Source: Mytilus edulis
Lineage: Eukaryota
DNA length: 64,000 nt
NCBI RefSeq assembly: GCF_963676685.1
Contig: NC_092348.1
Span: forward strand, 35,030,001 to 35,094,000
Direction of reading: 5' to 3'
This document shows, piece after piece, positions 32,849 to 57,050 of this stretch. The first letter of the stretch is position 1; the number at the start of each line of letters is the position of its first letter. The notes below the pieces were generated by a model. That model was not told where the DNA came from and did no database searches. It saw only the letters and a program-made list of their open reading frames with translations. A program made the position numbers and the translations under genes.

Positions 32849-32971
32849 CAGAGGCGGATTTAGAGGGCCCCCCCCCCCTTTTTGGGAAAAAATTTTGTTG
32901 CTTATATAGGGAATCACTGAAGCGTGACTGGAGCGGGCCCCCACTTATGAAAAATTCTTGATCCGCCACTG
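32849..32971. mobile_element. Short GC-rich MITE
   Basis: cagaggcggatt ... gatccgccactg inverted termini. Confidence 0.55.
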
Positions 32972-33959
32972 TAGATGACCTTACGGTGGATGTAATTGGG
33001 AATACGTATGTTTGTCCTCAATCCTCTTCAACTTCGAACTTTATTTTGCCTTTTTAAATTTTTTATTCGAGCGCACTAATGAGTCTTATTTTTTTTAGAC
33101 GAAACGCACGTCTTCCGTCAATATAAAATGTCAATCATGGTATATATGATGAGTTTATATACCATAGTGTCAATAGAGAGAACATTCTTCGATTAAAACA
33201 CACCCGGAAATAGCAAGAAAGTTTACAAAAAGAGTAGTGGGAACTTTGCTAAATTTTTTTTATCATACTATATTTCTGATAGTTTTCCCGAGCTATTCAC
33301 ATATTTTTAAACTTGAAAGGAGACCTCTTTCAGCGACACGAGCCTGGAACATGTACACATAACATGCAGTTGTAAGAAATATAGCTATATAAATATAAAA
33401 GAAAAGATGTGGTATGAATGCGAATTAGACCACTGTCTACAAGAGACCAAAATGACACAGATATTAACAACTACATGTCACCGTACGGCCGTCAACAATG
33501 AGCAAATCTCAAACCGCATAGTCAGCTATAAAATGCATTTCAAAGATACTAGAATAAGAATAAAAGGTTAACGTACTTACAAAATATGTCATCTTGTAGA
33601 ATGTGATTTCACAAAGATATGATTTTCAAATTCGCAGTCCAAGTCAATGCAAGGATTTGTAGAGTAAGACCTTGGTCAATGTAAAATCGGTTACACACAT
33701 TTTTCATGCTATAAATCCATTCCAACAATATCATTTTAAACACAAACTAGCTTGCCTTTTCATTAATTGAATAATACAAATTCAGCTAAATTTTGTTTAT
33801 TTCCATCAACAGAGATTTCTCACACTCATCCCAGACGTTAATAATACTCATGCACTTCAATTTTGATATGAAACAATTTATTGATACGGATGACTACGTT
33901 TTACAAGTACGGTTATGCATCAGGGTGTAAACAATGTGAATTTGTTTTTAATTGAGTTC

Positions 33960-34320
33960 AAAGATAGATTAAACGGTAGCTTTAATAGTGAAATGAACTA
34001 ATTTTTTTGAAATCTCGCCTAAATGTATGTTGCATAGATGTATTTGACAACAACAATTTATTTAGATCAAGCTGTTTTAAAATTATATTGATAAAACCAT
34101 TTATTGGTAAATACCGCATATATCTGCTCACTGTTTGAATATAGAAACTTGTCGATTTCATAATATTGAGAGATGTCCGAGATTTTGTAATATGTGTGAT
34201 AAACGAGTAATTGAAGATGATTATCATTTTATTTTAGTATGTGAAAAGTATAATGAACTTCGAAAGAAATTTATCAAACCATATTGTTGAAGAAAACCGT
34301 CGAATCTTAAACTGTTTAGA
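33960..34320 (+). pseudogene. Decayed LINE ORF2 3' fragment (C-terminal CCHC motif)
   Basis: KYRISAHCLNIETCRFHNIERCPRFCNMCDKRVIEDDYHFILVCEKYNELRKKF. A third smaller remnant (CHFCGSIDIGDEYHYIMTC) is at about 37045-37110. Confidence 0.7.
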
Positions 34321-36459
34321 CGATAATGTATTTGAATGGGGACATATAGTTGGAACTCGCCCCTTTTTTTGTGCTGGGATGGGACCCCCTTTTAAAGTGG
34401 CTGGGTGCTCACCAGTATCTGTTCATAATATAAAGCAACTTAACAATTCAAGGGAGGTTATTATTTCTGACTGAGAAGGCACGAAATTAAATTCATTTAA
34501 AAATGTGTTACATTTGATCATACTCTGCTGTACTGTTATATGCATGGGTATACTTACTTATATGATTATTTGACTAATTGTTTAAATGTAAATATATTTC
34601 ACTGATGTAACTGAATATTTGTAATAATTATTTTTTGTAAGTTGTATTGCTTAGGAATACAAGATTATATTATTAATAAAATAAATATTATGACTTTCCT
34701 TTTTTCATTGGATGAGCATGCAGTGGTGTTGAAACGCCAAAGAACTGGAAATAGAAAGCTATTTTAATTTGATACATAGGACAATGAATCTTAACAAAAG
34801 GTTCTATAAATTCAATTGTGAAAAAAAAATTCACAATACCGTGCATTAACTCAACAACCGTCCATCGACAAATATTACTTGATATTCATTGAAATGATAA
34901 CAAGTAAACAGTTATTGTAAAAACAGGGCAGCCTTAAATTCTAATAGTTTTTGTCAAAAAAGATTCAAAGTTTTACTGATGCAACGATATCTTATATATT
35001 TTGAGTTGAAATGGCCTAGCGGTAGTCGGATACGTCTAAACACCGCTCAGGACCTCCTGAGTGCACTCAGAACATACAAAGTGCACTCAGGACCCTTTAT
35101 AGTCGTCGCATTTGCACACAGGATGTATGTATATATTCCTTACATGCTGCTTATATAAGAATTAAATTTTGGTAGAATTTGAAATCGAACTTAGATAGAT
35201 ATGTTAACTTTTTTTTAAATAATGAGGGCACGTGTCACTGATTACACAACTACTGAGCCGTGAATTATCCAATCAACAAAATTAATTGGATTATCTTTAT
35301 TGATGTTTATGAATTGTGTTGTTTGTACAATGTTGCGTTTAAAATAGTTGAGATTGTTTAACATGTTTAATGTAGTTAAATTTAAATTATGCACTGTGAA
35401 AATAGTGAATTGTATGTTCATGGAAAAAAAATAAGATAACCCATTCGATGTTCTTTTTCAATTTACTTTTCATTTTGACGGCTAAATTTATATTTTGTAT
35501 TCTGCAGTTTATGAATAAAGAAAATAAAAAAAAATCTGTAACAAGTTCTATTTTTGTTTTTCTTTGTTATTTTTTCTTTCTCTCCATTTCAACATAATAA
35601 ACACAAACAATGTTTACTAAATATCAAATTTTATTCTCAATAAACAATACACATAGTTAAAGGGATGACATTTAAAATTGAGAATGGAAATGGGGAATGT
35701 GTCAAAGAGACAACAACCCGACCAAATAAAAAACAACAGCAGAGGGTCACCAACAGGTCTTCAATGTAGCGAGAAATTCCCGCACCCGGAGGCGTCCTTC
35801 AGCTGGCCCCTAAACAAATATATACTAGTCCAGTGATAATGTACATGTATGTACAATATTTACAATAATAATATTTACAATTTTAAAATAAGTCTAATAT
35901 CTTGGCTGTGTGCGTGCTGTCCTTGGTCTTTTCCTGTTGTTAGGCTTACGAGCAAGCTTCTGGGGTTATGGCACTTCAAAATCTGAGCATGAAGACTTAG
36001 TCGTGGTTTGGATGGATTTTGTGCCGATCAACAGTCTCCGAAATAGTCTTTCTCGCTGTTCTTGTGCTTTCGAAAACCAACATTGGTACGATACGACATG
36101 TCTTCTGTACGGACCGAAAAGTTCATAATTTCCCATTCCATACATGGAACGCTTCAAATCGATTAGTTGTACATGTGCAATGTCCATTAGTTTGGTTGCA
36201 AATTTATTTTCACATCGTAATTCGTTCAAGGATTGTATTACTGGACAAGAACGACTTTAATGAGAAATAAAATCTTACTAAATGCGGATTTGTTCAAACA
36301 TTCGTATTACTCGGGAATTAAATTACTGGACAAGTCCGATAAAAATGAGAAATAGAATCTAACTTTATGAGATTTTTTATTGTTTGAAAAATTTATTTTG
36401 GTCAGTACGCTTTCTATACTTAAAAACGGGCTCTATATACAAAACTAATTAACTTCATG

Positions 36460-36835
36460 AAAAGTAAATTTAATCTAACGCCAAACGATAGCCGGACCAG
36501 AGGTAAAAACCGCTTCTTCCAAGAAAGGGCCACAACAGACGCCTTCGGACAATCATTTTTTCCAAGGACCATTCGGACTGGAACCAACTGCCAACATCCG
36601 CAACATCATCTGACACAGTTGATGGATTCAGAGCTGCCCTGAAGGCATGCTCTGCTAAAATTTAGACAGTAACATCCTGTACATAGTTAAAATTGTATAT
36701 ATATAGAGAACGTTTTATCCTGTAAATAGCCAAGAGAAAACTTTCTGTGTTGTCCGACATTGCGTTAGTTTTCGCGGGATTCATACATTCAAGATTTGAA
36801 TTCGGTTCCTTACCTGGAAGAAGAAGAAGAAGATA
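36460..36835 (+). mobile_element. 5'-truncated CR1/L2-group LINE fragment
   Basis: TRG...SFFPRTIR, then a frameshift into WNQLP (typical CR1/L2 ORF2 C-terminus); 3' UTR and (GAA)n tail at about 36817-36833. Confidence 0.72.
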
Positions 36836-37621
36836 AAAAAAATTAAAAAAAAATCGAGATGTGGTATTATTGCCAAAGAGACAACTCCCCAAAAGCATGA
36901 AACGAGATTAACTTAACTGAAACAGAAATTAACAACTATAGTCACGTACGGCCTTCAACAATTTGCAAAATCCCTACTTTAAATTCTCTTTAATATTCAG
37001 TATAATTTCCTAAAGTTATTATAACCAACCCCTTTCAAGACAGACTTTGTCATTTCTGCGGCTCAATAGATATCGGTGACGAATATCATTATATCATGAC
37101 ATGTAAAGCGTTGGATGTAGCTATAGATAGACATTCTATACTATTCTGTACTATATTAATACACACTTAATCATGTTTTTAAAGTTAAAACTCTGAATTG
37201 AGACAGCACTATCGGTCATCTTATATACAAAAAATAATCTAAGTTCCTACAAATGTTACAGGTAAATCAGTCCTGCAAGCTACATGCAAGTTAAATCAAG
37301 TTTTTTTCAACCTAAGTGCATGGTATTAATAATTGTAAATATATATTTTCTTTGTTACTATGAAATGTAGTTTATTAAAAGTATTCTTTTTTAGAATGTC
37401 CGATTAATATGTGTACACAAACACAAGGTAATAGTTACAACAACACAAAGTATATTAATTAGGGTTGACATCTACTGACAGGTAAGTGTTCCATAGTTCC
37501 AGAGAATTTATGACAATACCCTGCACCCCTTGCCGTACACTCAGACAGAGGTATGGCCTCCCTGATGTAAGCCCCCCTCATATATAAACAATCATTTTCA
37601 AACGTGATTATTTCATAAATC

Positions 37622-40600
37622 ATGGATACTAGCTTCAGCCAACCCGGTTCTCAACCTGCTCATTATAATCGCGCTATATGTACTATTGGATGTTTATGTT
37701 GTGCCAAACTTATCGCCCACAATGAGCCATGCAGCTGTTGGAAACCAGTCGCCACAGCAACAATCTCAACACAAACAGATCCAGGCATTAGCTACGGATA
37801 CAGTTCCGACAGTTACTTCACCAGGGGCAATGTTGCCCATTCATTGCTTCATGTGAGTACACCACATAAAATATAAATGTATATAAGTTTAAGGTGGTAC
37901 ACACCACTTTCACTAAAATTAATTTGGCTCGTTTAATTTTCACAAAGTTTTGAAGTATTTACTTCGACCTTTTGACAAAAATATAAAAAAAATTGAACCA
38001 ACCATTTTATCAGAAAAATTACACTGGTTATATAGCAGTTTGACAGACAGTAATTTTGATCATTCAGAAGCTGAATTTCCCCTTAACAAAACAACGTAAT
38101 TAAAACGTTTAGCTGATTTTACAGAGCTATCTCCCTGTAGTGTTAGGTACCACATTAATAGGAAATATCTGAAATTACTGGTATTTAGAGGAATGTGGAA
38201 TGCATGCCAATGAGACAACTCTCATTCATTGTTTTACATCCTGTTTTACCATGTGAGATTTGTGTTGAATTGCGTGCATATTAAATATGTGTATTTGTTC
38301 CATATTTGATTGTGAATCTCGTATTGACTTATTAGTTGTTTGCTTTACTTACAGTGGAAATGTGTTCATGCATATTCATGATGCATCATGGTAATGAATC
38401 TTGTGAAAAAAATTAAAGATGTTGCCTTATTTGTATGAGTTAACTTGTTGAAGATGGTTATTTGAAAGTCCTCCTTGTGTTTAAATTTCATTGATTTCTA
38501 TTTACTTATACTAAAGTTATTGTGCGAAAACCAAGAATAATGCTTAATTAGGCCCTTTTGGACCCTAATTTCTTAACTGTTGGGACCAAAACTTCCAAAA
38601 TCAATCTGAACCTTCCTTTTGTGGTCATAAACCTTGTGTTCAAATTTCAAAGATACTTATTTACTTATACTAAAGTTATAGTGCGAAAAGCAAATGTCTT
38701 CAGACGACGAAGCCAACGTGATACCAATAATTGACAAATTTTTTTTCAATTTTTGCGGTTGTATAAAAATACAAAGAATTTGAAGCAACCGTTTTTTCAA
38801 AAAAATACACTGGTTATATATATATAGCAGTTTGACAAACACTAATTTTTCCCTTAACAACACAACATAACTCAAATTTTACAGAGTTATCTCCCTGTTG
38901 GGTTAGGTACCACCTTAACTGTTTTCTTTCATATAAAAACATATGTTAGGCTTGTTCTGTCATTTTTATACATGTCCAGAGTATATTTATTCATGTGGTT
39001 TTGAAAAAAAAACAAACAATTTAACGCTCAATAAGTGTGCAGGTATGCTTAAGAGTGACTGAAAACATTATTGACCTGTAACTGATGCCAATATAACTTC
39101 TTACTTGTTTAAAAACGTTTCAGCTATATGGAAGAAGGACATATTTGTGTACAAGAATATTTTTATTCATACTATATGAACACAATGTAACAAATTACAC
39201 ATCTGAAAGTCAGTCAATACAGCAAGATCAAATATATAAGCTATCACATGTAAAACTACCCTTGCAAATTAAGAAATAATAATTATCAATGATCATATGA
39301 TACACTTTTATAAACTTTCAATAACAAAAAACATGTTCTTCCTTACAAATAAGTTAAACTTCAAAATTTATTGTGTCAAAAATGTGAACTAGTAACCTAT
39401 CTATAAATTTTTATCATCTTTATTTCAATTCAGAAAAAAACTAACTTTATATAAAATTATAAGTGTGTGATTTTGTGGATAAGTATAAAATACATGAGCT
39501 AGTTTGAAAACGTTTTTTAATACACACTGTTACAACAGTATTCACTTAAAATACAAGTAAGTACAAGTCAGCCTGATAAGCCAACTTTTATACTTATATA
39601 TCCTTTAAATTTGTTTGGCTTGGCATTAATTTCAATCTTAAGAGATCACTTGAATTTATTTATAATTATGTACAGGTTCAAAGGATGTGTGACTCTCAAG
39701 ATAAAATAGATTTATTTAGGTATATTATATTGTATGTACAGTTTGTACTGACAAATAGTTAAAATTCTTTAATACAAAGAATTAAAAAAAAATCTATGTA
39801 CACAAAATCTGTATAGAAACAGTCAAACTCTCTGACCAAGCATGTATCATTTGTACATGTAAGAAAGAATACACACGGTCTAAATTATTTTGAAGATAAA
39901 TACTCGAAAACCCTATCTTTCTAAATAGCTTTAATAGTTTAAGATTTAATTATTTAATTAACCTTACATTCCAATATATAATAAATAAAGAACTACTCAT
40001 ATATAAACATATCATGAATACTGTCAGGACTGTATATTATGAAATTATTTTATTTTTGCTAAAAGTCATTCCAATAATTAAAACTCCCATTTTGAAATTT
40101 TTCTTTAAATCAATAGGAAATTTCTGAATATACCATTTTATTCTTAAATGATAAAATATCAGTAATAAATGCACGCAATAATTTCTGAATATACAGTATT
40201 CAGACAGTTATATATGTGTAAATATGAACAGAATATTCTGTTTCATGTAAAAATATTGACTTTGCAGTCTGAAATAAAGATTCTTATGGTATCTTATAAG
40301 AAAAGGAGCTTTTATTTAACATTCATACACATTGGTATCAAAAAAGTTAAATTTAAACAGCAGTTTTGGAGAAATTTAAAACATTGTCTATATACATATA
40401 CTTTGTCAAATAAGAAAACTGATCAATTACAAGTTAGATACATGTACGGACATAATGAAGTCTATCATTTTCTCTCCCAACAATCTGTGGAGCACTGACA
40501 TCTTTCAACATAACAGCTTTCTGTGAGGTTTTATGCTCTAACACACTCCAGAATCCATCTTCATATCTTACATCATCAAATATATCAAGCAAAACCCAGG

Positions 40601-43600
40601 TGTATGTTTGTCCTCTCCAAACGTGCTCAAAAATCTTACAAATTGAACCAAATATTATACTGTCAACTAAAGAATCTGTTGAATTTTCATCTACAGTATA
40701 CACATATGAATTTGAAGATCTGTTATTGGAAAAAGGTGAAAAATTAATTTTCCTGCCAGTGTTTCCATATGTAGTGTTTCCATAGGACCTTGTGCATGAA
40801 GCAAGTTCTTTGCCTTCCTTACTCATTCTTGCTACCAAACAAAAGTCATAAACATTGGACATTTCTCTCAAAATGTTATCATCAATAGAGAACGTTTTCT
40901 CATTTGTACTACAACTGTCATCTTTTTCATCTTCTAAAAGCAGTCTCTCTAGTTTACCAATGTCAATACCATCTTGTTTGACCTTTCCAGACATTATCAT
41001 GTAGACACACCAATCGTAAATCTAAAAAATAAAGAAATGACCATGAGAAACAATTTAAAAAATGGATATTCCATTTTGCGATTTACATGCAAGAACTGAA
41101 CAGAAACACTGGATTTGAGATATAAAATATAAAATAAGATTATGAATTTATATAATTGCTTTCCAGATCCTGCTTTATTATAAACCAAAGTGAAAACAGT
41201 AAAAACCAAACTTGCTGACTATTTTGTAATCAAAACACAATTCTTTAATCATGTTAATAATATTAACCATGAAATAAAATCAAGTCTAAGAATGTTCCTT
41301 GCTTTTGAATGTTTGCCTGTTATTCTGAATCCTCTGGTTTTTCTGATGTAGTGAGTGCGATTAACACATTCTGTTACCAAAACCCTTTCTTTTCCTTTTA
41401 TATCTTATTAAAACATATATTGATTAAGATGCCTTATTAAAATAAAAATCCTTTAATTTTAAAGTTTCTGAAGGAAAACTGATGCTATTCATCCATTGTT
41501 AAATGCATAAAAATCTAGAGGTATTCACTTCCCACCAAATTGCTAAACGGTTAATATCTTGAAAGCAACCACAAAGACCCTACATGTTTCATGTTTTCTA
41601 TTAATTCCTTGATTCATATACATTGTAATTTATAATAGTATTTTAAATAGCTTCTTAAGTAGACATCATTAAAACAGAAATTGACATGAAAATCTTGTGA
41701 CAAAATTTTTCATGGTGGACTCGAGTAAAGATCTGGTGTTGAGACTGAAATATAACTATATATATATATATGATAAAGTTGCCTTATATGGCATATACTT
41801 ACAGCATAAGTCTCCATGATTGTGGCTTCAATCTTATTTTTATTTAAAGCTTGACGGGTTATCCAACTGTTTACTCTTTCAAATGGAAACAGCCACCTCC
41901 CATAAAGAGGACCAAAATTTGCAAATCCTTCTGGTATATGATGAAGTAGATGTGTTGTAATAGTCTATAACACAAATAAATAACAATGTATCAGTAATGG
42001 TTAAAATTAATATGACATACACTTCAGTAAACCACAAAACACTGCAAATACAATTTTCTCAAAAAAATACTTGTAGAAGTAACTTTTTTCTTACAATCCC
42101 ACAAAAGTGTTTAAGTTTTAAAAAGTAAATTCATGCCTTTAATAATTCTTCCCCAAGTTTTCTCAATTTTTGTATTAGAGTCCAATGTTTCGTCTCATTA
42201 ATTCAACAAATAAACTGATTGTGCAAAGATCTTAATCATGTATTGGATTTTCCATGAAATTACACTTAAATGATTAGTAAAGACATCTGCAAAATTCTAT
42301 TAGAGCAAAGAAATCATTAGAATTCAAAAAAAGAAGATAGGATGATTTTTTTTACTTCTACAAGTAAAAAAATCTGAATGTCTAAGGGACATAACTCAGC
42401 CAATATTGTTTTACCTACATGAGTACAAGTAAATAAAATTCACCTGTATAAGTATCCTACAAATTTACTTATATAAGAATATTAATATTACTTCCCCAAG
42501 TCATTAAAAATAACATGTACAAGTAGTACCCCCTGACTGTAAGCTAACATAAGCAATTTTGACAATTATCTTTTTGTGTACTGATAAAACGAAATGCACA
42601 TACTAATTAAGTTTGTCTCATACCTGTAATGCAATAGGGAAATCTCTTTCCACCAATGAAACAGCTTCACTTGTAGATTCAATAATGAATTCCAATTCGT
42701 TTTCATGATAAGATTCACTGGTCAGCAACTCAATCACATTAAAAAGCTTCCCTAATGTTGTCTCTTGTTTACTGGGCAATAGTCCTCGTAGACACCAAAG
42801 TGCAGCTCCACTGGTTACAAACTGAAAATGTCAAATAAATGGTCAAATACTTCAGTGAATCTATTGTTTTGTGTTGTGCATGCATGAATACATTGTACAT
42901 GTGGGTACAGAAAAAACTTTTTTTATATAAAATTGGAAGAATGTACTGTAATTATCAAATTGACAAGAAAATTCACAAATCGTACTACAGTATTACAGCA
43001 TTAAAATTGAACATCCAACAACAAATTATAATTGTCTCATTTTTTTAAATTTGCAATGAAGACCATTACAAACAAACATTCTGTTAGACATAGCCCCCTA
43101 CCTGTTCATTGTACATTGTATTTGAACAAAATTCTAACTTAATCTATAACTTGTCAAGGTGTAAACATAATACATCAAGGATCATAGCTCTATACAAAAT
43201 CACTAGACTAAACCAATATTAAACTTGACCTGTAACTTAGAAGATGTGGTATGATTGCCGATGCAGTGAAACAACTCTCAACAAGAGACCAAACATGCCA
43301 AATGACACAGAAATTAACAACTATAGGTCAATGAAACCTGAAGCAGGACAAACAAAAGGAGGAACAGAATGAAAAACACACTGTTCATAATTGGGGCATA
43401 AACAACATGTGTGCCAGTCAAAGACCCACATCATATACATGTTATCATTCTCCTAACAAGAACAACAAAATCAAAAGTCAAAATGTATACCTGATGTTTT
43501 CCATGCATAGTCCTCAGTGTCCATGGCTTTGAAAAATGCTGGTCTGGGTGGTAGTCATATCCTGTTGGATACACCAATGACATGGCTCTTTGATCAGCAA

Positions 43601-46600
43601 TTTTAACACTTGATCTATCAAGTCTCCATGGAGCTGGGGGTAGTTCATTTTCTGCTGTCATTGATTCTACTCTTGCTTTTTTAGCTTTTCTCCCGTCTTC
43701 TGTATTTGATTTTCTTTTGTTGCTTCCTACAACTGTTTCCTCGTCATTGATGATGGTTCTGCTGTTCCATGAATCCTTAAATCGTTGAAACTCTTCTTCT
43801 CCACTCCGTACCTTTTTCCCATCATCTTTTCCTGTTATGAGGCCAAAGAGATTGCCAATTACATCTGCAATGGTGTGCATACCGTCAGGTTGCATTTGTT
43901 CTTGACGATTATGGTAAGGCAGTCTCATGAAGCTATATTTTCCTTTCAGTCCTGTTTTTTTCTGTAAAAGAGATTTTCTGTTTTGATTTGGAAGTTGATC
44001 ATAGCTGTTTCTGATTTCTAATTCTTCTTCTTTTGTATAAGACTCTGGTTTACTTGCTCTGTCCTCACCTTTGATAGCAAAATCATTCTTTTCTTTTCTC
44101 AATGGATGATTTTCTGGTAAAAAAGCTCTATTGTTGATATGAACCACTTTGTGTAAAGACTTACAATAGAATCCTTCTTCCTTACAATAAGGACATCCAC
44201 GGAGTGCAGCCTGGCTTGAAACATGTAAAATCTTGCTGAATGCGGGAATGTCACACATGTAATGCAGGAGTGCTATTCGGACTGATGTAGGGGCTCCTCT
44301 GTAGGCATTAAACATTGTGCACTCTGTCAGTTCTAGCAATTCATCTACTAAAAGGTCCAAATATGGATCGAGGTTTTTTGTCTCTTCTGTCTTTGTACCT
44401 GGAACAATGCCAACCAACATCATTGGTCCTAAAATATTTCGGACATTTACAGGCAAATTGAGCCAGGTGAGGATTAATGGCCACATCGACTTCTGAGTTG
44501 CCATACTTTTGTGAGGATTAAGCCCATCACAAAAAAGTGCCAATGGAACTGTACAGCTTTCCTCCATGTCCTGAAAGACTCCTCCATCTTCATACCAAGA
44601 TTTATATATCTTTCCATCAGTTATGTCAGTTAACTTTCCATTGCAAAGATCTTGTCTGGAATAAAGAATCTTACATATATTGTCACTTCCAAAAATCCTT
44701 GAAAGTCTTGGTCCAATAGGCATATACGTAAAAGTTTTTCGTGCACTTAAGGACTCTGCTTTGTATCTTGGCTCTCCACATTTTGTACATTCTCTGTCTA
44801 ATGAGTGGTCATTGTCACTTGTTTTGCAGAAAAGTAAGCAGTCATTGACACATGCATCATATCTTTTTGTTTCTATAATCATCGGTTTTATCATTTGATA
44901 TGCTTCCTTATAAGATTCAGGGAGGCAGTTGGGAGTTGGTAATACTGTCTTCTCATTTTTTAGGCACATGCTCAGTGCTGTTTTAGACATTCCATTGTTA
45001 GCGCTGAAATTTATGAAGTGTCTAAACAAGGAGTCAAGTAGTGTTGTACGACAACCTGGATATAGTGGTTCTTGAAGTTTTTCGCTAAGTGAATCATCAT
45101 TATTCTCTATCGGTAAAAAGTTTGGCTTCAGATATGAAGATTCCTTGATTGAATTACTGATGGTTTTAAAATAATTCTGTTGTTGTCTTCTTTGAGTCCT
45201 TTTACTTTTCCCAAGTTCTGAAAGAAAAGACAGATTTTAGTGAATTTGGAATTGTGTGATTGATATTAACTCAGATCATTATAACGAAAAATTAATATAT
45301 AAACATTTAGCATTCTGATTTCTGTGAGTATTGCAAATCACTACATGTACCTCAGGGATCTCCATGGCCTGTTTAATGATAGCGCCCCGCCAACATTCAA
45401 ATGTCTTGCGCAATCGTCAAATGACTTGTGCCATCGTTCAATTGTCTTCTGCCATGGTTCAAAACTGGAAAGTTTTAATAGCCTGACACCATTTTATTAG
45501 CAATTTTAATCAAATGCATGTTATTGCATAACCCTCAGGCTGTTTTTATAGTATAATCCATTAGGGATAACCAGATTAAGATCGCTAATCACTTGTACCT
45601 GAGCTTGCACAGATAGATCAACAAAACAGACAGGAGAATATTATCTGAAGATAAACGATTTATTTGTCGAATTATCTAACTAAGTTTCCGCAAATGCTTA
45701 TGAAAATTCAGAGATCAAATAAATAAATTGATAATCCAGTTACAAAGTTTTAACAAGATGAACACATGCTTTTATTTTGACTTGCGCAATCAGCATCCCC
45801 CTTTTTTAAGAAGTACAAAATAAGGCGTAGAACAGTAATTGTTATTTCATCAGAAATAACTTGAGTACTGCTGTATTGTAACAATAATATATAGATATAG
45901 GAAGATGTGGTGTGAGTGCCAATGAGACAACTCTCCATCCAAATGACAATTTAAAAAGTAAACCATTATAGATTAAAGTACGGCCTTCAACACGGAGCCT
46001 TGGCTCACACCGAACAACAAGCTATAAAGGGCCCCAAAATTACTAGTGTAAAACCATTCAAACAGGAAAACCAACGGTCTAATCTATATAAACAAAACGA
46101 GAAACGAGAAACACGTATATATTACATAAACAAACGACAACTACTGTACATCAGATTCCTGACTTAGGACAGGTGCAAACATTTCGTATTTTATAATCAA
46201 ATTGATACATCCGCACTACTGCAAACCAGCCATACTGGTAATGGGTTCATGACTACTGAATTTGACAGTGTCCGTGAAAAATAAGCTCCACATAATTTTT
46301 AACCCCCATAACGATTACCAAAAAATAGCAAGAAAAATGCATTGGGACCTTCGTGACAGCTATTGGTTATTCTCGACTTAGGGAAAGGTAGGGGCATGAG
46401 GGCTTGGCCTTTGAAGGGTTAATAAAAACGGCAATCATTGAAAATATATACTTCTATATAGTATTTATAATGAAAATTCAAATAAATATAATTCAAATAA
46501 AATAAATTAGCATGTTCACCCATACTTATGTGGAGGGATGAAATACATTACATCGTGCTACACTGTACGGCGTATGATACAGTTTATGATGATGAAAGTT

Positions 46601-49600
46601 CCTCCATGGTTCAATTTTCATCCATGGAGATCCCTGGTACCTGTTACAAATTCATTTTATTGGAACAAAATCCGAACTTGATTTATAACTTGTCACAGTG
46701 TATACTTTTTGACAAATTATATCAAATCAACATCCTCAAGAAAGAAGACCAAAAGTGTTGAAAATTTATCATTTAAGTGACTATTTTTAGTCCAAAAATC
46801 ATATCTCTGAAAAAAGTAATCCTACTGCACTATTCCTGGGGTATAAAAAAAAACCGCCATTTGTTTAGTAGTCATTCATTTTTTCTCCAATTTGTTTTTA
46901 GTTTAAATTAAATTAAAATCATTTTACACTTGCAGAGAGCCATAAGAACCCTAGATGAAGTGTCGGACAATAGACACAAGACAATTGGAATTGTTAGAGA
47001 GATGTTTCCAGAGATACGCTCATCACCAAAAACCAACAAAAAGTTAAACCGTGCTATTAGAAGGTCAAAAGTCAACAGACAATACTATGGTAACCTCAAG
47101 TACGTAATTTTATTTTTTTCATGAATAGTTTTGGTTTAATGACAGTCAATGGACTCTCATCATTTGATGTGTTTTATTGTTCCATGCAAGAATATATATG
47201 GTTTAAGGGTGGGGACTGTTTACAACTTTTTAACCAAGAGGGGATGGGTATGACCCCAAGGGGCTTCCCTTTTATTTCATTTCATTTGTTTTATTACCCA
47301 ATATTTCTTGGTTAGGGGTGGGGATCTCGTCTGATTACAAGATAAAAGCACATTATTAAATTGAATAGGGTGAGGTGACCCCCAGGGACTTCCCTTTTTT
47401 ATCATTTAATTTGTTTTATTGTCCCATACAAGACAGGGTTGGCAAAGTATTACCCGCCCGGGAATTCCCGGGTTTTCCCGGGCTGGGCAATACTCCCAGA
47501 AATAGGTAATAGTGGGCAATACTGGGCAATATGATTTTCTAAGCTTATTTTAACACTAAATAGTAAAGACTTGGTACAGTTTCATAGTATAACAGCTAAA
47601 TATATACTTTTTATACAGATAACCATTGACAGTCATTTCTAGAAATATATCATTCTCAATTTCATTCTCTTCTCTATTAATTCTATATGTAGGCAGAACA
47701 GAAGATTTGTACATTTAAAGATACCTTTTTAATTACCAAACATTATTTTAATAATCCAAACTTTGAAACATGCATTTTATTGCAGTGTTGAAGTGACTTG
47801 TTAATTTTATTTGTTATACATTCATATTGCTAAATAAACACCCTAAGGGGTCATGCCAATAAAACTTATAGAATTATAAGGGCTGATTATTGTTACATAA
47901 ACAAATCTGTGTTCTAATCTGAATAATTACTAATTAATTAGTGACATTATTTAATTGTAATTTTTCTTACAAAGTAATTGTTAATTCTTAAATTAGGAGT
48001 TATATCTATTTGAAAGAAAACAATTGTTTTGCTTTATATTTACAGTTTGACAATCTAGACAAATGCTAGACAAACAAAATAGGGTATAAATATCCTATTA
48101 AATATATTAAATTTGTGTATCACTGAATCTTCTTTAAAATTCAGACAAGTATTTTATATTACCCAGTATTGCCCATTATTACCCACTAAAACCCAGTAAA
48201 ACCTGGGTTTTCCCAGTATATCCCACTGGGATGGGCAATACTCATAAAACCAGGGTTTTTGCAAACCCTGATACAAGAATATATATGGTTTAGGGGTGGG
48301 GATCTAGAGGGTTTACAAGATAATAGCACATTCTCAAATTGAATTTTGAATCAAAACCAAAAATATACAGATCCTTAGATTAATATAACAAAGAAGTGTG
48401 TAAAGTTTTATGCACTAATCCTAATTTTTTTTTTTGAGATATGGCATGACATGTAAAAAAAACTTCCCCTTTTTTACAAAATACTAAATAACTGAAAAAT
48501 AAAATTTTGAATCATCACAAAAAAGTATATCGATCTTAAGATTAAATTATAACTTAGAAGTGTGTAAAGTTTTAAGCAATAATCTAAATCGTTTTAGATC
48601 TACAGTATGACATGTGAAAAACACACACCTGTTTTAGTAACAAAGTGCCGTAACTCAAAAAAAGTTTTAATCTTGTTTTCACCAAAAAGTATACGGATCA
48701 TTTGACCCTCATAATAAACAACTATAATAAGTTTCATGAAATTTGGATAAGTCGTTCTTGACTGACACCTGACATTTTTATTACAAAATACATGTACATC
48801 TCCTCAAAATTTTGACGGGCGTTTAAAAATTGTTCTGGAAGGTCTTATCACCAAAAACATGTATTCAAATATGACAATGTATGAAGGAAGAAAATAAGTT
48901 TAAAGTGTCATTTCAATTGTCAAAAGGTCACCTTGAGATATATTTCAAGGTTATCATGGTTATAAACTAATACCTCAAATCAAAAGACCATGATTGGTCT
49001 TAATTATATTAATTTGATTTATGATAAATTTGTCTTAATCTGTTTCGATTGCGATTTGTTTTATATTTTACTTTTTTAATTACAGGCAAAGAGCTGAAAC
49101 ACAGGGACAAACAGTGCGTCAGATGCTTAATAAGACAAAAAGGTAGGGCATCCTTAAATCAAAATCAATGACGGACTAAAATAAAATGCATCCTAAAAAA
49201 AGCTCAACACTATAAGTGGCACTTTTTTACATTATTGAAGGTTCATTATCCCCTATTACAAACTAGAGGCTTAAAAATAGCCTACCCTAAAGATTTTATT
49301 GTCATTTTTCAGTAAGCACTGTTAAAGTCAGAATGTTGCTCCCATAGACTCAATGTAAAAAAAAACCCATAAAATAAAAAAAAATCCCTACCTACCTACC
49401 CTAACTTTTTTCAGATCTAACTGGAACCACACATACTTCTTTATTTGGCCTTAATATCCTGGTGGCCATCTTGAACAGTAAATCGACAACTAAGTTGCAA
49501 ATAATGATCAGCATCCCATAAGGAACATTTATAAATGTAATGTTTGGTTTCATTCCATAATTAAGAGGTTATCTAGATGAAGACATGTGTATATATTTCG

Positions 49601-50774
49601 CATACAGGGTGCTTTTTAAACTAAGTTCCCCATTGTCAGCCATTTTGGTTGCTGGATTGCTTCAGAGTACAATCACCTCATTTGGAACATTCATTCCATA
49701 CACATGATACAGTGGTTCTCTAACAGAAGACATTCTAATGTATTGTCCATAGGGTCTTATATGGTTAATCAAGTCCTCAACTAGCAGCCATCTTAGATAG
49801 CACAGACTCATCATAATTTCTATCATCCATATAAGATCATATTTTAGACCATTACTTCTGGACAATGGGGTATAAAATATTCAACATGAACATATTAATT
49901 CATGGAATATATTTGCCTGTTAATAATAGATATATTGTTATGTCTTAAACTAAAGTTATGGTGTGAAAACCAAGAAATGCTTATTTGGGCCCTTTTTGGC
50001 CCCTAATTCCTAAACTGTTAGGACCAAAACTTCCAAAATCAATCCAAACCTTCCTTTTGTGGTCATTAACCTTGTGTTCAAGTTTCATAGATTTCTATTG
50101 ACTTAAACTAAAGTTAGAAGGCGAAAACTTAAAGTACTCTGACGACGCAGATAACAACGCCAACGTGATATCAATACGACCAAAATTTTTAGAATTTTTG
50201 CGATCGTATAAAAATCATTGTAATAAATGGGCCCTTTAATTGGAATACAATTATCTTTAATATCTTATCTTATTAATTAGGATTTTTTAATTTCAGACTT
50301 GAATCAACTTGTCCCCTTGATGACCAAACAAGCACAGACCTGATGACAATCGATCCTGACCGAGAACCAGAATTCAACCAGCAAGATGATTCTGATACCA
50401 ACAACACAGACCTTGAAGCCAACACACCGGTTGAAGCAAACAAAACTGCTGGAGCCAACATAACAATTAGAGCAGAAATTCATCACAAGTCCAATGATAC
50501 AGATCATCATGATCATATAATATATGAAGCAACACCCATTCAAGACTTAGATGCTGCAAAGCCAACTGATGAAATATCAACTGTTCCAACTGAAGAAAAA
50601 TCAACTGTTCCAACTGATGAAATATCAACTGTTCCAACTGACGAAATATCAACTGTTCCAACTGACGAAATATCAACTGTTCCAACTGAGGAAAAATCAA
50701 CTGTTCCAACTGATGAGATACCAGCCGATGAAGCTTGGGAAAAAAAACTGATCCATTATTGTCAACATTTTTAA
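37622..50774 (+). CDS. Putative second (accessory/cargo) gene of the CACTA element, about 309 aa, unknown function
   Basis: Exons 37622-37852, 46936-47099, 49086-49142 and 50297-50774 have canonical GT-AG sites and phases 0, 2, 2 that join into one 930-nt open frame. The last three exons are better supported than the first. Confidence 0.5.
37890..38158. mobile_element. TTAA-flanked MITE (ggtggtac...gtaccac), with a second partial copy at about 38780-38917
   Basis: ttaaggtggtac ... ggtaccacattaa; the second copy ends ggtaccaccttaa. Confidence 0.6.
40434..45217 (-). CDS. CACTA/EnSpm (TnpD-like, Transposase_21/DUF4218-type) DDE transposase, at least 890 aa; first exon(s) not securely located
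   Basis: In-frame exons 45217-43491, 42821-42624, 41964-41803 and 41021-40434, with no stops. Motifs EPLYPGC, DACVNDC...CTKCGEPRY, LFCDGLNP (D), WPLILTWLNLP, GIVPG, DPYLDLLVDEL, CDIPA (D), GCPYC, RAFLPENHPLR, DGMH, HLLHH, GPLYGRWLFPFER (E). Confidence 0.93.
45353..46636. mobile_element. Non-autonomous CAGGG-terminal element with 6-bp TSD (GTACCT), hAT-like
   Basis: Perfect 15-bp TIR CAGGGATCTCCATGG; GTACCT at 45347-45352 and 46637-46642; contains a nested family-B repeat at 45893-46185. Confidence 0.8.
47434..48270. mobile_element. Non-autonomous hAT element with 8-bp TSD (ATACAAGA)
   Basis: CAGGGTTGGCAAA ... TTTGCAAACCCTG; ATACAAGA at 47426-47433 and 48271-48278; subterminal tgggcaata/acccagta repeats. 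Confidence 0.88.
50562..50720 (+). repeat. Coding 24-bp (8-aa) tandem repeat PT(D/E)E(I/K)STV, about 6.5 copies
   Basis: Repeated ccaactga(t/a/c/g)gaaa(t/a)atcaactgtt within ORF 50343..50774. Confidence 0.92.
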
Positions 50775-51332
50775 ATTATATTTCTGTTATCATGGTTATC
50801 ACATGTTATTTATTATAAAATAATATATATATCAAAAATTGAAAACCTATCAAACTGTCCCTGTTTACTTGGTATGAGCAACTTTGAGAATGTTTAAGAA
50901 TTTTTTTAATTGAAATATATAACTCAAATTGTTTGTGTAACCAGAACAGTTTTTTTTTATAAACCTTGTACTTTGTTCATAACGATTTTTTATTGACATA
51001 TCTTATCATCATCAAGTCATCCCTAAATTAGCTAAAAAAAAAAAAACAAATGAAAGAATATTACTTTAAAACCCAAAAGACTGATATCATCAAAACCTAA
51101 CTGTATGAAATTGTATGAACATTAAAGATAAATTATAGGCCTAGTTTAATGATTACAGCACCTAAAATTGTGGCATTATATTTCTCATGTTTCTACATTG
51201 TAAATGTCTAAAATAGAATGCCCAAAACTTTCATGTATTGATCTTTTGTAAATTCAACAAAACACGATACATGCATGTATGATTAAATGAGTGAGGAAGG
51301 ATAAATTAGGATATACATATTTTTATATTTTT

Positions 51333-51368
<36 letters not shown>

Positions 51369-52104
51369 TTTTTTCATTCATGTATGATCATCAATATACA
51401 TGTATATTCCACATTGTATTTATTAAAAGAAATGCCAAAGGCAAATATAACATCATCAAGTCTTTCTTTAAATATTTTTTATCTACCAGCTCAGCCATAG
51501 AAATAGAGGTTTGGCATTCACAGCACCGAATTAATACTTCACATTTTGCTTACTTACGAATGAACATATGTACTACAAACTTAACAGAAATTGACAGAAC
51601 CAAATGTACATGTATATCTACACATGTTACAGAACAAGGACTGTATGTGGTTTTCTAATTTCAAGATCAGTAGTTAATAATATTATAAAACATAAAATTT
51701 GGTATGAAACTTCTCAACAAAGACTGAAATGGTGTTGAAGTTATTAGGTATAGGCCACCATACAGGTTTCAACAATGAGCAAAAAACCATACAGAATACA
51801 TTGTAGTAATACTGTTCCTAATGGTTAGGTAGACTTTGTTTTACCAAGTACACAAGAGACCAAGTGCAGCATCGGTATTGAGAATCTGGTTTATAAAACA
51901 ACCAATATTGAATAATAGAAATAATGCCAGAAATATCTATACTATTTAACCAGATGTGTGTCAATTCTCTTCTTTCCACAATAAATTAATCATCATGCCT
52001 CTGTGTCCTATAGGTACAGTGCATAATTGTATTTGTCATCCATTCATATAATTATTCAGATTTAGTTTTTTGGGGAGAAAAACGAGAAAAAGGCGTCCTG
52101 ATAT

Positions 52105-52472
52105 GTCAGATTAGACTTCCAGTATGTGTTTTTCTGTATACTATAAACATACATATACTACGAATGAAGTGTATTTGCTGTCTGATATTCGTCGTTAGAT
52201 AATTTAAGGTCAGATTAGACTTCCAGTATGTGTTTTCCTGTATACTATAAACATACATGTACTACGAATGAAGTGTATTTGCTGTCTGATATTCGTCGTT
52301 AGATAATTTTAAGTCAGATTAGACTTCCAGTATGTGTTTTTCTGTATACTATAAACATACATATACTACGAATGAAGTGTATTTGCTGTCTGATATTCGT
52401 CGTTAGATGAAATTCTAAGTCAGATTAGACTTCCAGTTAGCGGTTTTCTGTATACTTTTGAACATACATATG
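52105..52472. repeat. 104-bp tandem repeat, about 3.5 copies
   Basis: gtcagattagacttccag units start at 52105, 52209, 52313 and 52419. Confidence 0.93.
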
Positions 52473-54442
52473 AAAGTTATTCATGTATTATTAAAATCAA
52501 TAGCAAACAAAAAAAACTTATTTTTTTGTGAAAAAAGCATGAGCCGGGCTATAAAAACAATAATCCTGTCCCAAATCACCTATGATTTGTTGTTCTGAAA
52601 TTCTTCAGTTATCAAATTTTTTTACAAAAAAAAAGATGTGGTATGAGTGACAATGAGACAACTCTCCACAAGAGACCAAAATGACACAGAAATCAACAAT
52701 GAGTAAAGCCGATACGGCATAGTCAGATATAAAAGGCCCTAAAATGACAATGTAAAACAATTCAAAGGAGAAAGCTAACGGCCTTATTTATGTACAAAAA
52801 ATGAACGAAAAACAAATATGAAACACTTAAACAAACAACAACCACAAAATCCTTCCTATGACACTTTACATACTTTCAAACACGCTTTGAATGCCTGCAA
52901 TTTCGCGGGTTTGTTCTAGTTAATTAATAGATGTAAACTCAAGTCGCTAGACACTGACTGAGGGGTGGATGCAATTAATACTTGCATTGTCATTGAATTG
53001 TGCGATAGCATTAAATAATATACAACATTTCCCACAACTGCACTCACTATTATCAGGATACATGTAAAAAAATGTACATGTATATATCAATGTTTTTTTT
53101 TAACAATCAATAAATAGTTACACAAATGTAGTTTCATCACAAGTAATTACTGGATATCATTTGATATATCATGGTATTTAATTTCAATATAATAATGACA
53201 CTATCAATACTCATGATACTGTGATACAGGAAATATCTCTTCATGCAAGATTAAACAACCTCACATACCCCACATCCACACATTGTCTTTATAGGAGAAA
53301 TTAAATAATGGTAAGAAAAATATAAAAAAAAATCCTGTCTTTATGCACATCTACGTAGTATGTCCTTATTATCTTCAAAAAGCTTCATTAAATTCTGTTA
53401 CAGTGTAGTTTCAGAGGAGTTGCTATGACAAGAAACAGGACTGACGGATGGATGGGTCAAAAACATTATACTCTCTGTGTCTTCTTTCCATGGGGTATAA
53501 AAATGATAACAGGCCAGCCCCAGGACCATAAAAAAATACAGTTGTACGAATTAACATTTTTAATTATTTGTATATTGTACTTACCACATATATCAAAATA
53601 ACCAGAAAAATCCATATTCATCTAAGGTAATGTAACCATCACTTTGTACACGTACAATGTATTAACCTAAATGAGACAAAAGTTAGGAATTAATTTTACA
53701 TATATTTAGACAAATTTCTTTTTATGTTGTTATTCAACATAATGTTATGATCTACAAATATCCCCCCTAACCCCCTATCATATTACAAGAGTTTATGTGA
53801 GTTAATTTAACATACAAAAAATAGATATTTAACCCCTCTTTTGTGGTTATAAACATTGTGTTAAAATTTTTTGATTTCTTTTTACTTATATAAATACAAA
53901 AGTTATAATTCGAAAACAATCCGTCTTCGGACGATGTGATATACAACCATATTTTTTTTTTTGCGGACGTATAAAAAAGAATGAAGTCAGTGGGATTAAG
54001 AAAAGCATGAAATGTCCATAGACTCGAACTGGTCTTACCTTTTTAGCTTGCCAATATTTCATTATGTTTTAAATCATTGTCTTATTGGTCAATGTTTACA
54101 AACTCCTGATGTACAAAATTCCAATTAGGATGTGTATTCGAAAGTTGACTTTGCGCATGTGTGTACATGGTGAAAATAGAAGAAAACTTACAGAGGCTTG
54201 AAATGGGGAAAATGGTCCTGATTTTATGTTTGGTGATGAAATAAAGTTTATTTGAGACTTGATTTACTGATGTTAACTTATTCTATAATTCAAAGGAGTA
54301 CATGTAACACTTCTTTGTGATGAAAATACAAGACTCTTATGGTAACCTTATAAGAGATGGTGAAATTGCATCACTCTTTATCTTAGCTGTAACTAAAGCT
54401 AGGAACGTGGCCATAGTTTGATAAAATACAATATTGTCTTAA

Positions 54443-54737
54443 GGGAGCTACCATTTGATTTTTATGGGGGGGGGGGGGGGGGGCTAGGATGAAAAATTTT
54501 GTCCTGCATTTTTTTTTAGTTGTAATCTCTGTCCTGCCTTTTTATTTTTCACTCTATTCGGTCCTGCCTTTTTTTTTATTATAGTTTATCCTGACTTTTT
54601 TTTACCTAAATTGTCATCCTGCCTTTTTTTTTGCAAAGTGTCTCATCCTGCCTTTTTTTTTACGCAAAACTCCTGTCCTGCCTATTTCTTTCAAATTTCA
54701 TCCTAGCCCCCTCCATAAAAATCAAATGGTAGCTCCC
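54443..54737. mobile_element. PIF/Harbinger-type MITE
   Basis: TIR GGGAGCTACCATTTGATTTTTATGG, 3-bp TAA TSD, internal tcctgcctttt tandem units. Confidence 0.8.
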
Positions 54738-57050
54738 TAAATGACTGCCATGCATAAATAGATTTCCAGAAGATTTTTGCTAATTGACTAGAAGTAAATC
54801 TTAGTCATATGTCATGTACATGTATGTCAGATTCTAAAATAAATAAAATACAATGTCTAATTAATGGCTCATGCTAGCAGGCGACATCAGTGTTCAAGTC
54901 GCTTTCCAATCAATTCCTTTTGCCTAACCATCAAAAGTGAAATCTAGTCATGCTGTTGTCACCTGACCATTCTCTATTTAGTTGCTTTCATGGATCATTC
55001 TTAACAAGTCAATGAAACATAATTTATTTTTATGATAATTAAAAGATTTGGACTTAAATTGTATACTCCAACTTGAATTGAACAATATAAAAAGAACATT
55101 ATTTACATATATAAACTCATCATACCGGTAGACACTTAATACTATAGTACTAGAGCACTTCTCTCTCAAATCTCCACTTCTCCCTATCTGTTTCAACTAG
55201 AGTCACTTGCAATGTATCCCTATGATTCTGAAGCATGTGAGCCCTGTCTCCATGCCAGCTATTAAATTTTATCAGTGTGTTTAAATTTTATAGTTAAAAG
55301 ATATCTAGTATGATTTACAATATGACAATGCCATCACAGACCAAAGGACATTGAATATAAATCAGGTAAATGTAAAGGTGAACAGCATACAACCATAAAC
55401 GAGCAAACTTTTGTTCATCTTTCTATAGTTACTCACAGTGTTCTCCCAAGGGCCTTTTAACTTCATGGTAATGTGATTTTACAATTTTTAATGTGATGCT
55501 ATCTGAAGTGGTTTTCTTATAAATTATGCTATGGATGTGTTGCTATACATTTTAATAACTAGATGGTTTTTCAATTTCCCCTTATTACCACGAAACAACT
55601 ACATGCACTATACATACAAAAATATGTAAATTGCTCTGACTATGGTCATTGCAATTCATTTCCTTAATGACCACTCTACACCTACATGTACATTTGTATC
55701 TCCAGTACAGTCCGGTTTTATCAGACTCTAAATAAATCTTAATTTAAGGTCTTACAATGACAATGTTTGTCTCTCATGTTCCATAACTAAATGGCCAGCT
55801 ATTTTTAATATATTAATTACGTGGTACGTGTACATGTACACAAATGTATATGTATGATTACTATTGATACAAGTCTCCACTAGATCAAATATTGTAGCAG
55901 TTAGCAAATATAGGTGAACATGGTAAACAGCCTTCAATAATGAGCATTTATACACCTTTTTTTCTTGGTTGAAATTTCAGGTATAAATTGCTGTTGTATA
56001 TTAGTGAAATCCTTCATATAACAACAAAATTATTGGCCTAAATTATGTACAAAAAAATAACAAACAAATATACACATGATACATGGCACAGACACCATAC
56101 AGAAATTGAGAATGTGGCGGGGTTAAACATCTAAGCCGGATCCTAACCATTCCTCTAACCATAGGTCAATGTAATACATAGAAACCACTTAAAATTTAAA
56201 TCTGAGAAAATCTTGCTACTAAATTATCAATGCATGTACAAATATATATCAACAATATTTTCTCAACTGAGTGATGGTGCTAATCTGTAACATTTTAATT
56301 TGCATAAGGACAGTACTGGTTTATATGAAGCTGGGTGTGATTTAGATGTTAGTTACAAAAATGTAACTTGTTATAATTATTATTACTGATATCTATACAT
56401 GTAAATCAACTATCAGTCATGTCAGTGTCACCAAATGAATATTACATGTACAAAAAAGCTGAGATGAATAAAATAGTTTAAAATTGAACACAATTGAGTA
56501 ATAGCTAAGTATTTAAGACTCTGCTATTAAATTCCCAATTTTTCCTTTCTTAAATTAAAGAAAATAATGATTTTCATATACATGTATGACGATATTTTAC
56601 AGCTTTCTGAAAGGGATTTTTTTATTTAGGCAAGCACTTTCTACTGCTTTTTATGCTTCTTATAATGTAATATAAAGGGTAGAAAAAAGTTAATAATCAA
56701 ACTTCAGAACTAGAAACCCCTTGACCACCAAACTGTGAAAAGTCAACCTCCACCAATGAAACTTCAGGAAAAATTGAAAGTCTGTGTTAATGCATGTACT
56801 TTTAAGAATACATTTTTCATGTTTTTCAAAATACATTAAGTTTTAAGTAGAAGTACAGATTAGTTATTTTTCAAATAATTTATTCATATTCATTGCCTTG
56901 TCACGCATATGTTCTGAATTACACTTGCACCTTAAGAAAGTTTCTTATTCAAATATTGTAAAAAATTATCAATGACAGTGGACAATACTTCCTTTCATTC
57001 TTTTAATGTCAACAAGGCTCCCAGTTGAATGCCATAATTTGACCTTCTTA

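What the first reader, a model, noticed from the sequence alone, without database searches (positions are those of the whole stretch)
37622..50774. Unknown 309-aa gene on the opposite strand, with exons on both sides of the CACTA transposase
Seen: four plus-strand exons with canonical splice sites join into one open frame. The product has a Cys-rich N-terminus (CTIGCLCC...CSCW), a basic central segment (KTNKKLNRAIRRSKVNRQYYGNLKQRA) and an acidic repeat tail. Under this model all identified transposase coding exons lie antisense within its 9-kb first intron. Established: plant En/Spm encodes TnpA and TnpD from one alternatively spliced transcript on one strand. Inference: a two-gene nested antisense design, where the protein may be a DNA-binding or regulatory partner, or captured cargo. 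I recognise no domain in it.
Basis: partly seen in the sequence, partly recalled or inferred. Interest (0 to 1): 0.75.

Follow-up and report, generated by a model that had tools for sequence, protein, structure and literature searches.

The report
Mussel transposon with two interlocked genes
A cut-and-paste jumping gene of mussels carries, besides its transposase, a second conserved spliced gene of no known family on the opposite strand; gene models place the body of each gene inside an intron of the other, and the second protein is likely a DNA-binding helper of the transposase.

Summary
The 309-aa gene is real. It lies in a 31.9-kb CACTA (En/Spm) element (27297-59215, TSD TAA) with complete copies at three other sites. 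RNA contigs fit the four-exon model to the base; the frame is under purifying selection against a sister subfamily with the same intron phases. It is not simple nesting: RefSeq models from three Mytilus species start the 903-aa transposase in an exon at 53621-53585, beyond the partner's last exon. Partner exons 2-4 thus lie in a transposase intron and transposase exons 2-5 in partner intron 1, with no exon overlap. Subfamily A2 has the same interlock; other subfamilies have the coding exons head-to-head. Homologues occur in oysters (next to the same transposase lineage by gene numbering) and a brittle star, and partner and transposase trees largely agree, so it is an old integral gene, not fresh cargo. 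Conserved: Cys cluster, TQT (LC8-type) motif, basic helical bundle without a clear fold match; some relatives add a BAH-like barrel. Function is inferred, not shown: a TnpA/Myb-like DNA-binding accessory. The scan held no sequence look-alike.

The parts
27297..59215 (.). CACTA (En/Spm) element, subfamily A, 31.9 kb including many nested small repeats
   Evidence: TIRs and TSD; complete copies with other flanks and TSDs TTT, TAT, TTA
27297..27546 (+). left TIR, starts CACTAGT; preceded by TSD TAA (27294-27296)
58966..59215 (-). right TIR, 96% complementary to the left; followed by TSD TAA (59216-59218)
37622..37852 (+). partner gene coding exon 1 (77 codons): Cys cluster, TQT motif, start of helical domain
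37679..37738 (+). Cys cluster C-x3-C-x-C-C-x9-C-x-C (residues 20-39)
   Evidence: C20, C24, C26, C27, C37 invariant in 6 of 6 rows
37769..37777 (+). TQT anchor (ATISTQTDP), LC8-type motif
   Evidence: [TSIV]QT in 30 of 30 homologues examined, exact TQT in 25; motif features from PMC6607443 passages
40434..41021 (-). transposase coding exon 5 (last)
41803..41964 (-). transposase coding exon 4
42624..42821 (-). transposase coding exon 3
43491..45217 (-). transposase coding exon 2 (Transposase_21 domain)
46936..47099 (+). partner exon 2: basic helical bundle
49086..49142 (+). partner exon 3: end of long helix and short last helix
   Evidence: contig arithmetic; P0016, P0020
50297..50774 (+). partner exon 4: acidic low-complexity tail with a 24-bp repeat (50562-50720) and a short C-terminal motif shared with A2
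53585..53621 (-). transposase first coding exon (12 codons + 1 base), downstream of the partner gene; has an acceptor-like site upstream, so the promoter is probably further right
   Evidence: 5 RefSeq models P0086, P0111, P0112, P0113, P0116 begin with it; open 903-aa model; present in copies C4, C7, C14; upstream context

Best explanation
This CACTA element carries two spliced genes on opposite strands, a 903-aa transposase and a conserved 309-aa partner, which gene models show interlocked in each other's introns; the partner is likely a DNA-binding accessory, predicted to be dimerised by the host hub protein LC8, that would help the transposase find the element's ends and would regulate the element, as TnpA does in plants. 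Shown: element, exons, splicing, selection, co-inheritance, interlock in subfamilies A and A2. Inferred: the basic helical bundle (residues about 58-151) binds DNA, probably the family-specific subterminal repeats; TQT recruits LC8 to pair two chains; the Cys cluster binds zinc; the acidic tail is an activation or interaction region. Also inferred: the two converging transcripts overlap over about 10 kb without sharing exon sequence, so transcription of one would damp the other while the mature mRNAs would form no double strand.
For: Inside TIRs in all five subfamilies with TIRs found; 17 of 19 exon-1 loci in the genome are within 21 kb of a transposase hit (16) or in a deletion copy (1). Purifying selection A vs A2: 131 codons, pN 0.35, pS 0.84, 0 of 1000 bootstraps with pN>=pS; intron phases 0,2,2 in both. 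Partner and transposase distances correlate over 11 pairs (rho 0.53, p 0.0005) and clades A/A2, C/D and oysters recur in both trees. Oyster neighbours by gene number: LOC134273910/11 and LOC134246058/59. Core pI 11.0, 21 K/R vs 7 D/E; confident helical model of an oyster homologue, pLDDT 93-97 over residues 81-180. BAH-like barrel in relatives, Z 8.1, rmsd 2.7, 74 aligned, points to a nuclear chromatin role. Family-specific terminal 7-mers (no shuffle control). Interlock. Analogy: TnpA binds subterminal repeats (PMC2613891 passages); Harbinger Myb-like protein binds TIRs and transposase and co-evolves with it (PMC9179366 passages).
Against: No Pfam family (0 relevant of 35 members) and no clear fold match for the core (best Z 5.9, rmsd 5.1, 70 aligned, DEK C-terminal domain), so DNA binding rests on charge, shape and context. 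Many TQT peptides do not bind LC8 (PMC6607443), and the homologue set was found with a profile that includes the motif. Several database models of A/A2 partners begin at the Met in exon 2 (P0015, P0016, P0117, P0119) or use another first exon (P0121), so shorter isoforms may exist. The transposase first exon rests on RefSeq models plus 28 unplaced letters in contig X1-5, not on a junction I saw; P0112 is identical to the window's protein and may not be independent. One homologue has no CACTA transposase within 110 kb. Pairings outside this genome are by accession adjacency or contig length, two with stand-in proteins, and kinship inflates the Mantel p.
Confidence: 0.55

Rival explanations
1. 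The partner is mainly an anti-silencing or chromatin factor: it reads or shields repressive marks on the element, or soaks up LC8 needed by host silencing complexes, and is not needed for cutting and pasting.
For: The seven best structural rows for the barrel of subfamily C are BAH-containing chains, several of them methyl-lysine readers; a brittle-star homologue has the barrel region too. LC8 dimerises the fly piRNA silencing complex (PMC7861614, listing and abstract start only). Fungal EnSpm carry TET/JBP genes proposed to escape silencing (PMC12730594 passages).
Against: The window's protein, A2, B and the oyster proteins lack the barrel; Foldseek E only 0.02 and Z 8 is middling; the fly complex is not known to me in molluscs (recalled).
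Confidence: 0.25
2. The protein is a real accessory, but the interlock is a neutral leftover of a rearrangement in the ancestor of A and A2 and has no regulatory role.
For: Subfamilies B, C/E and D spread with head-to-head coding exons; both genes gave contigs in the same run X1.
Against: The layout has lasted while synonymous sites saturated (pS 0.79-0.89) and is modelled in three to four species; persistence can however also reflect that it is hard to undo.
Confidence: 0.4
3. The gene is captured host cargo with no role for the element.
For: A transposase-free homologue exists at G000:C7:25.99-26.00 Mb, 86-93% identical in core exons to M. californianus LOC127704450.
Against: That gene nests beside subfamily B (98/98) and a clade of element-borne partners without it is rejected at p-AU 0.035 (group named after seeing an earlier tree), which suggests domestication from the element; selection and co-inheritance across mussels and oysters.
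Confidence: 0.07

Closest known systems
Maize En/Spm TnpA + TnpD (also Tam1 Tnp1/Tnp2, soybean Tgmt*)
   Same: CACTA ends, 3-bp TSD, Transposase_21; two products; the transposase ORF sits in intron 1 of the accessory product (PMC2613891 passages).
   Different: In plants both come from one strand by alternative splicing; here two genes on opposite strands, mutually interlocked; no sequence or fold link to TnpA was found or could be tested directly. A 2026 preprint finds TnpA-like proteins restricted to flowering plants and the DNA-binding domain typically fused to the transposase in animals (10.64898/2026.08.24.746577, section 6).
PIF/Harbinger transposase + Myb/SANT-like protein
   Same: Separate, fast-evolving, helical accessory gene co-evolving with a DDE transposase (PMC9179366 passages).
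   Different: Other superfamily; no Myb Pfam hit and no profile match to a mussel Harbinger Myb-like ORF (probability 0.4%); Cys cluster and TQT motif are extra.
Schistosoma SmTRC1 (animal CACTA)
   Same: Animal CACTA with a second product lacking Transposase_21, proposed as TnpA analogue (PMC1636069 passages).
   Different: SmTRC products are alternative splice forms of the element's transcripts and had no detectable relatives in other animals; this partner is a separate antisense gene conserved from mussels to a brittle star.
Fungal EnSpm/Plavaka elements carrying TET/JBP genes
   Same: CMC-type elements with a separate extra gene linked to chromatin (PMC12730594 passages).
   Different: Those genes are enzymes passed between superfamilies; this one has no enzyme match and follows its transposase tree.

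Membership tests
CACTA / EnSpm superfamily (the element) | Termini 5'-CAC..GTG-3' (CACTA) in TIRs | tested here: met
   CACTAGT...ACTAGTG, about 250-bp TIRs; definition in PMC12730594
CACTA / EnSpm superfamily (the element) | 3-bp target site duplication | tested here: met
   TAA here; TTT, TAT, TTA in 3 of 3 other copies with both ends found
CACTA / EnSpm superfamily (the element) | Transposase_21 (+DUF4218) transposase with C(2)C and H(3-4)H motifs | tested here: met
   PF02992 E 2.3e-28, PF13960 E 4.9e-07; CPYC and HLLHH in the 903-aa model
CACTA / EnSpm superfamily (the element) | Subterminal repeats | tested here: inconclusive
   Repeated 7-mers in the terminal 500 bp (6 in A, 11 in B, 22-24 in C/E), no shuffle control, both TIR arms counted
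TnpA-like proteins | Made by alternative splicing or a separate gene on the transposase's element, same strand in the prototype | tested here: not met
   Opposite strand in every subfamily mapped
TnpA-like proteins | DNA-binding domain of two tandem tri-helical HTH motifs, related to a transposase domain | tested here: inconclusive
   Model shows one helical bundle plus a long and a short helix; no clear fold match; no profile match to its own transposase; no TnpA sequence was at hand to compare
TnpA-like proteins | Binds subterminal repeats; required for transposition | not testable with these tools
   needs binding and transposition assays
Harbinger Myb/SANT-like partner | Myb/SANT domain with conserved aromatic residues | tested here: not met
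   No Myb/SANT Pfam match in 35 members at E<=0.5; hhalign to a Harbinger Myb-like ORF 0.4%
BEN domain (recalled lead) | BEN fold / Pfam BEN | tested here: inconclusive
   BEND6 row at Z 4.3, rank 48 of 50; no Pfam hit
LC8 (DYNLL) clients | TQT anchor with H-bonding residue at -4 and strand breaker at +2 in a disordered stretch | tested here: met
   ATISTQTDP: T at -4, D at +2, I rather than a basic residue at -3; linker pLDDT about 58-61 in the homologue model
LC8 (DYNLL) clients | Measured binding to LC8 | not tested
   no assay or prediction was run for this pair
BAH domain (C-terminal barrel of relatives C/D/E) | BAH fold with methyl-lysine aromatic cage | tested here: inconclusive
   Z 8.1, rmsd 2.7, 74 aligned to Rsc2 BAH; Foldseek E 0.02; cage not examined; absent from the window's protein

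The most novel reading that the evidence does not exclude
An old animal lineage of CACTA transposons runs on a dedicated second protein of a new family (zinc cluster, LC8-dimerised new helical DNA-binding domain, optional histone reader), and subfamilies A and A2 have turned gene layout into a switch: each gene is transcribed through the whole body of the other from the opposite side, so one copy makes either transposase or partner at a time while its spliced mRNAs share no complementary sequence.
Probability: 0.25. Interest if true: 0.85.

Novelty: new variant of a known kind. Interest (0 to 1): 0.66.

Why it matters
Animal CACTA elements are usually described as carrying their DNA-binding part inside the transposase. 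A separate accessory gene kept with the transposase across mussels and oysters would show an independent route to the plant TnpA/TnpD division of labour, and give a new protein family to test for DNA binding, LC8 use and anti-silencing. Related subfamilies with interlocked versus head-to-head layouts of the same two genes, with young intact copies in one genome, make a natural experiment on transcriptional interference in a mobile element. One homologue looks domesticated.

Tried and rejected
Partner-transposase complex prediction (A2 pair): no verdict, score 0.00, alignments not used; no evidence either way. Pfam on exons and homologues, PDB sequences, Foldseek PDB and viral on the core model, ESM Atlas: nothing usable; this does not prove a new fold. 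A BEN or ribbon-helix-helix reading recalled from memory was not supported beyond Z 4.3. Searching for a transposase first exon by A-A2 DNA conservation failed; protein models solved it. A Harbinger transposase lies head-to-head with the transposase-free homologue, but its second copy at C7:40.96 Mb has its own Myb-like ORF and shares no sequence with the homologue: treated as an independent insertion. One search used wrong coordinates and is not used. No DNA around oyster or brittle-star homologues could be fetched, so their layout is unknown and whether the brittle-star gene is in an element is open. The root of the transposase tree is unresolved, so which layout is older is not shown; loss of the N-terminal C.C..C..H motif in 6 of 6 A/A2-type transposases (present in 6 of 18 others, many of them truncated) hints that A/A2 is derived. 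Strand of the RNA and transcription starts were not obtained. Literature searches listed no description of this gene or layout; Repbase, most subscription journals and the supplements of the 2026 preprint (962 Spm-encoded structures) were not seen and may hold such a protein.

Full report
Observation. The four plus-strand exons have GT-AG introns and give one open frame of 309 aa. The long minus-strand ORF is a Transposase_21 protein. Both lie in one element, 27297-59215, with about 250-bp TIRs starting CACTAGT and a TAA duplication. The own genome holds 93-99% identical copies on C4, C14 and C2357 and deletion copies on C7 and C9; the three other copies with both ends found have other flanks and TSDs TTT, TAT and TTA. 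The 309-aa frame and splice sites are intact in 2 of 2 other complete copies, C4 and C14; the C9 deletion copy has a stop in exon 1. Near-identical named proteins place the genome in the mussel genus Mytilus.

Splicing. Of four runs laid, contig X1-1 ends its first piece exactly at 37852 and resumes at 50295 after 219 letters, and X8-18 (on record as RNA) covers exon 2 exactly and resumes at 50295 after 55 letters; both fit the model to the base. X2 has a contig entering exon 4 with 28 letters before it. Raw run X21 had low depth on exon 4 and listed no joint at these places. X1 also holds transposase contigs that break at 41021, 43491 and 45218. Contigs give no strand, and X1 is only guessed to be RNA. 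Independent models agree: M. californianus P0016 (89% identical over residues 100-309) joins exons 2-3-4, and M. trossulus P0118 joins exon 1 to exon 2 across the transposase in the sister subfamily A2. Against: several A/A2 models start at the Met in exon 2 or use another first exon.

The layout is interlocked. The transposase exon at 45217 starts with an acceptor. Five RefSeq models from three species (P0086, P0111, P0112, P0113, P0116) begin with an exon that maps to 53621-53585, and the five exons give an open 903-aa protein. That exon lies 2.8 kb beyond the partner's stop. On the + strand the order is partner 1, transposase 5-4-3-2, partner 2-3-4, transposase 1, with no exon overlap. In A2 (C11 copy, 35.6 kb, TSD CTA; also C12) three models with a distinct first exon (P0134, P0138, P0139; P0137 starts the same way) place it beyond the partner's last exon as well. 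P0112 is identical to the window's protein and may annotate this same genome; the M. galloprovincialis, M. californianus and M. trossulus models are the independent ones. In B, C/E and D the coding exons are head-to-head (in B about 350 bp between start codons, by one isoform model); 5' untranslated exons were not mapped, so some overlap there is not excluded.

An integral gene. Homologous exons were found in all subfamilies examined (transposases 48-67% identical), inside TIRs where TIRs with TSD were found (A, A2, B, C, E). Two exon-1 searches gave 19 loci; 16 are within 21 kb of a transposase hit, 1 is in a deletion copy, 2 are one transposase-free locus present twice. A against A2: same intron phases, 131 core codons, pN 0.35, pS 0.84, 0 of 1000 bootstraps reversing this; transposase exons give pN 0.23-0.37 at pS 0.79-0.84. 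A profile search found 47 proteins at E<=0.001; of 10 looked up, 4 are oyster, 2 brittle star, 1 mussel, 2 unnamed and 1 a probably spurious fluke repeat. Oyster partners have gene numbers adjacent to transposases of the same lineage in two cases. Over 11 pairs, distances correlate (rho 0.53, p 0.0005) and the main clades recur in both trees, though B and S. echinata are placed differently or weakly; pairs outside this genome rest on accession adjacency or contig length, and two use stand-in proteins.

The protein. Conserved parts: a Cys cluster, a TQT-type anchor in 30 of 30 homologues examined (25 exact), then a basic helical region (pI 11.0) and a variable low-complexity tail (acidic here, pI 4.1). 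An AlphaFold2 model of an oyster homologue built on 35 rows is confident for residues 81-180 but matches nothing clearly: best Z 5.9 (DEK C-terminal domain), with capicua C1, homeodomain, GARP and BEN rows at 4.3-5.1 among unrelated ones. It shows no profile similarity to its transposase. Subfamilies C/D/E and one brittle-star protein add a C-terminal barrel whose best matches are BAH domains (Z 8.1, rmsd 2.7, 74 aligned); the window's protein lacks it. The TQT context fits LC8 binders in most positions, but many such peptides do not bind (PMC6607443, passages).

How it most likely works. Shown: two genes, opposite strands, co-inherited, under selection. Inferred: the partner is a DNA-binding accessory paired by LC8, acting at the family-specific terminal repeats to assist and regulate the transposase, like plant TnpA (PMC2613891 and PMC1636069, passages) or the Harbinger Myb-like protein (PMC9179366, passages). 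Confidence 0.55; a mainly anti-silencing role gets 0.25, cargo 0.07. On the separate question of layout, converging transcripts that overlap from about 40.4 to 50.8 kb would interfere, yet mature mRNAs would not pair; whether this is used or is a leftover (0.4) is open. One speculative route between layouts: in a head-to-tail pair of interlocked elements the junction puts the two first exons head-to-head, and two intronic deletions give the B-type order; the tree root does not settle direction.

Comparison and novelty. The element passes the CACTA tests. The partner is not shown to be TnpA or Myb. A 2026 preprint (10.64898/2026.08.24.746577; abstract, section 6 and searched passages read) reports TnpA-like proteins only in flowering plants and the DNA-binding domain typically fused in animals, while noting other accessory proteins; its supplements were not seen. 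PMC12730594 (passages) gives the superfamily definition and fungal extra genes. PMC7861614 was seen as a listing with abstract start only. Eight searches aimed at this gene or layout listed no description; Repbase was not available. The scan's index had no sequence look-alike and one loosely similar note in another genome. Verdict: new variant of a known kind; interest 0.66.

Noticed in passing
G000:C7:25994260-26004470 (L062-L063); also C1614, C307: Transposase-free homologue of the partner with two extra 5' exons, orthologue-like to M. californianus LOC127704450, nested beside subfamily B in the tree: candidate domesticated gene.
   Followed up: partly
G000:C14:40.001-40.003 Mb (L084): B-type partner exons with no transposase hit in 40 kb: probably a non-autonomous copy that kept the partner.
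   Followed up: partly
L062:814-3347 and L080: Harbinger transposase (PF13359 E 6.5e-29) with copies at C7:25.98 Mb and C7:40.96 Mb; the latter has a convergent Myb-like ORF.
   Followed up: partly
window 62485-63711 (+): 408-aa ORF matching DDE_Tnp_1_7 (PF13843 E 8.9e-48), piggyBac-like by recall, outside the CACTA element.
   Followed up: no
window about 1700-9200 (-): Exons of a probable host gene with RS-rich stretches, a 36-bp acidic repeat and a SAP-like motif near 9000 (label recalled).
   Followed up: no
window 25266-26285 (+): 339-aa acidic ORF without Pfam match, 1 kb left of the element; may be an exon of a host gene into whose intron the element inserted.
   Followed up: no
window 16252-16566: Nine perfect copies of a 35-bp unit.
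   Followed up: no
window 52105-52471: 104-bp tandem repeat inside the element, between the partner's 3' end and transposase exon 1; much expanded in the C9 copy.
   Followed up: no
P0021, P0025, P0033, P0011, P0012: Database models fuse partner exons to other sequence (a transposase-like piece on the same strand in an oyster, a THAP-like gene by recall, a HEPN domain, host enzymes): chimeric annotation or real exon capture.
   Followed up: no
G000:C8:46.81-47.05 Mb (L014, L016, L017): Three older remnants of exon 4 at 83-90% identity.
   Followed up: no
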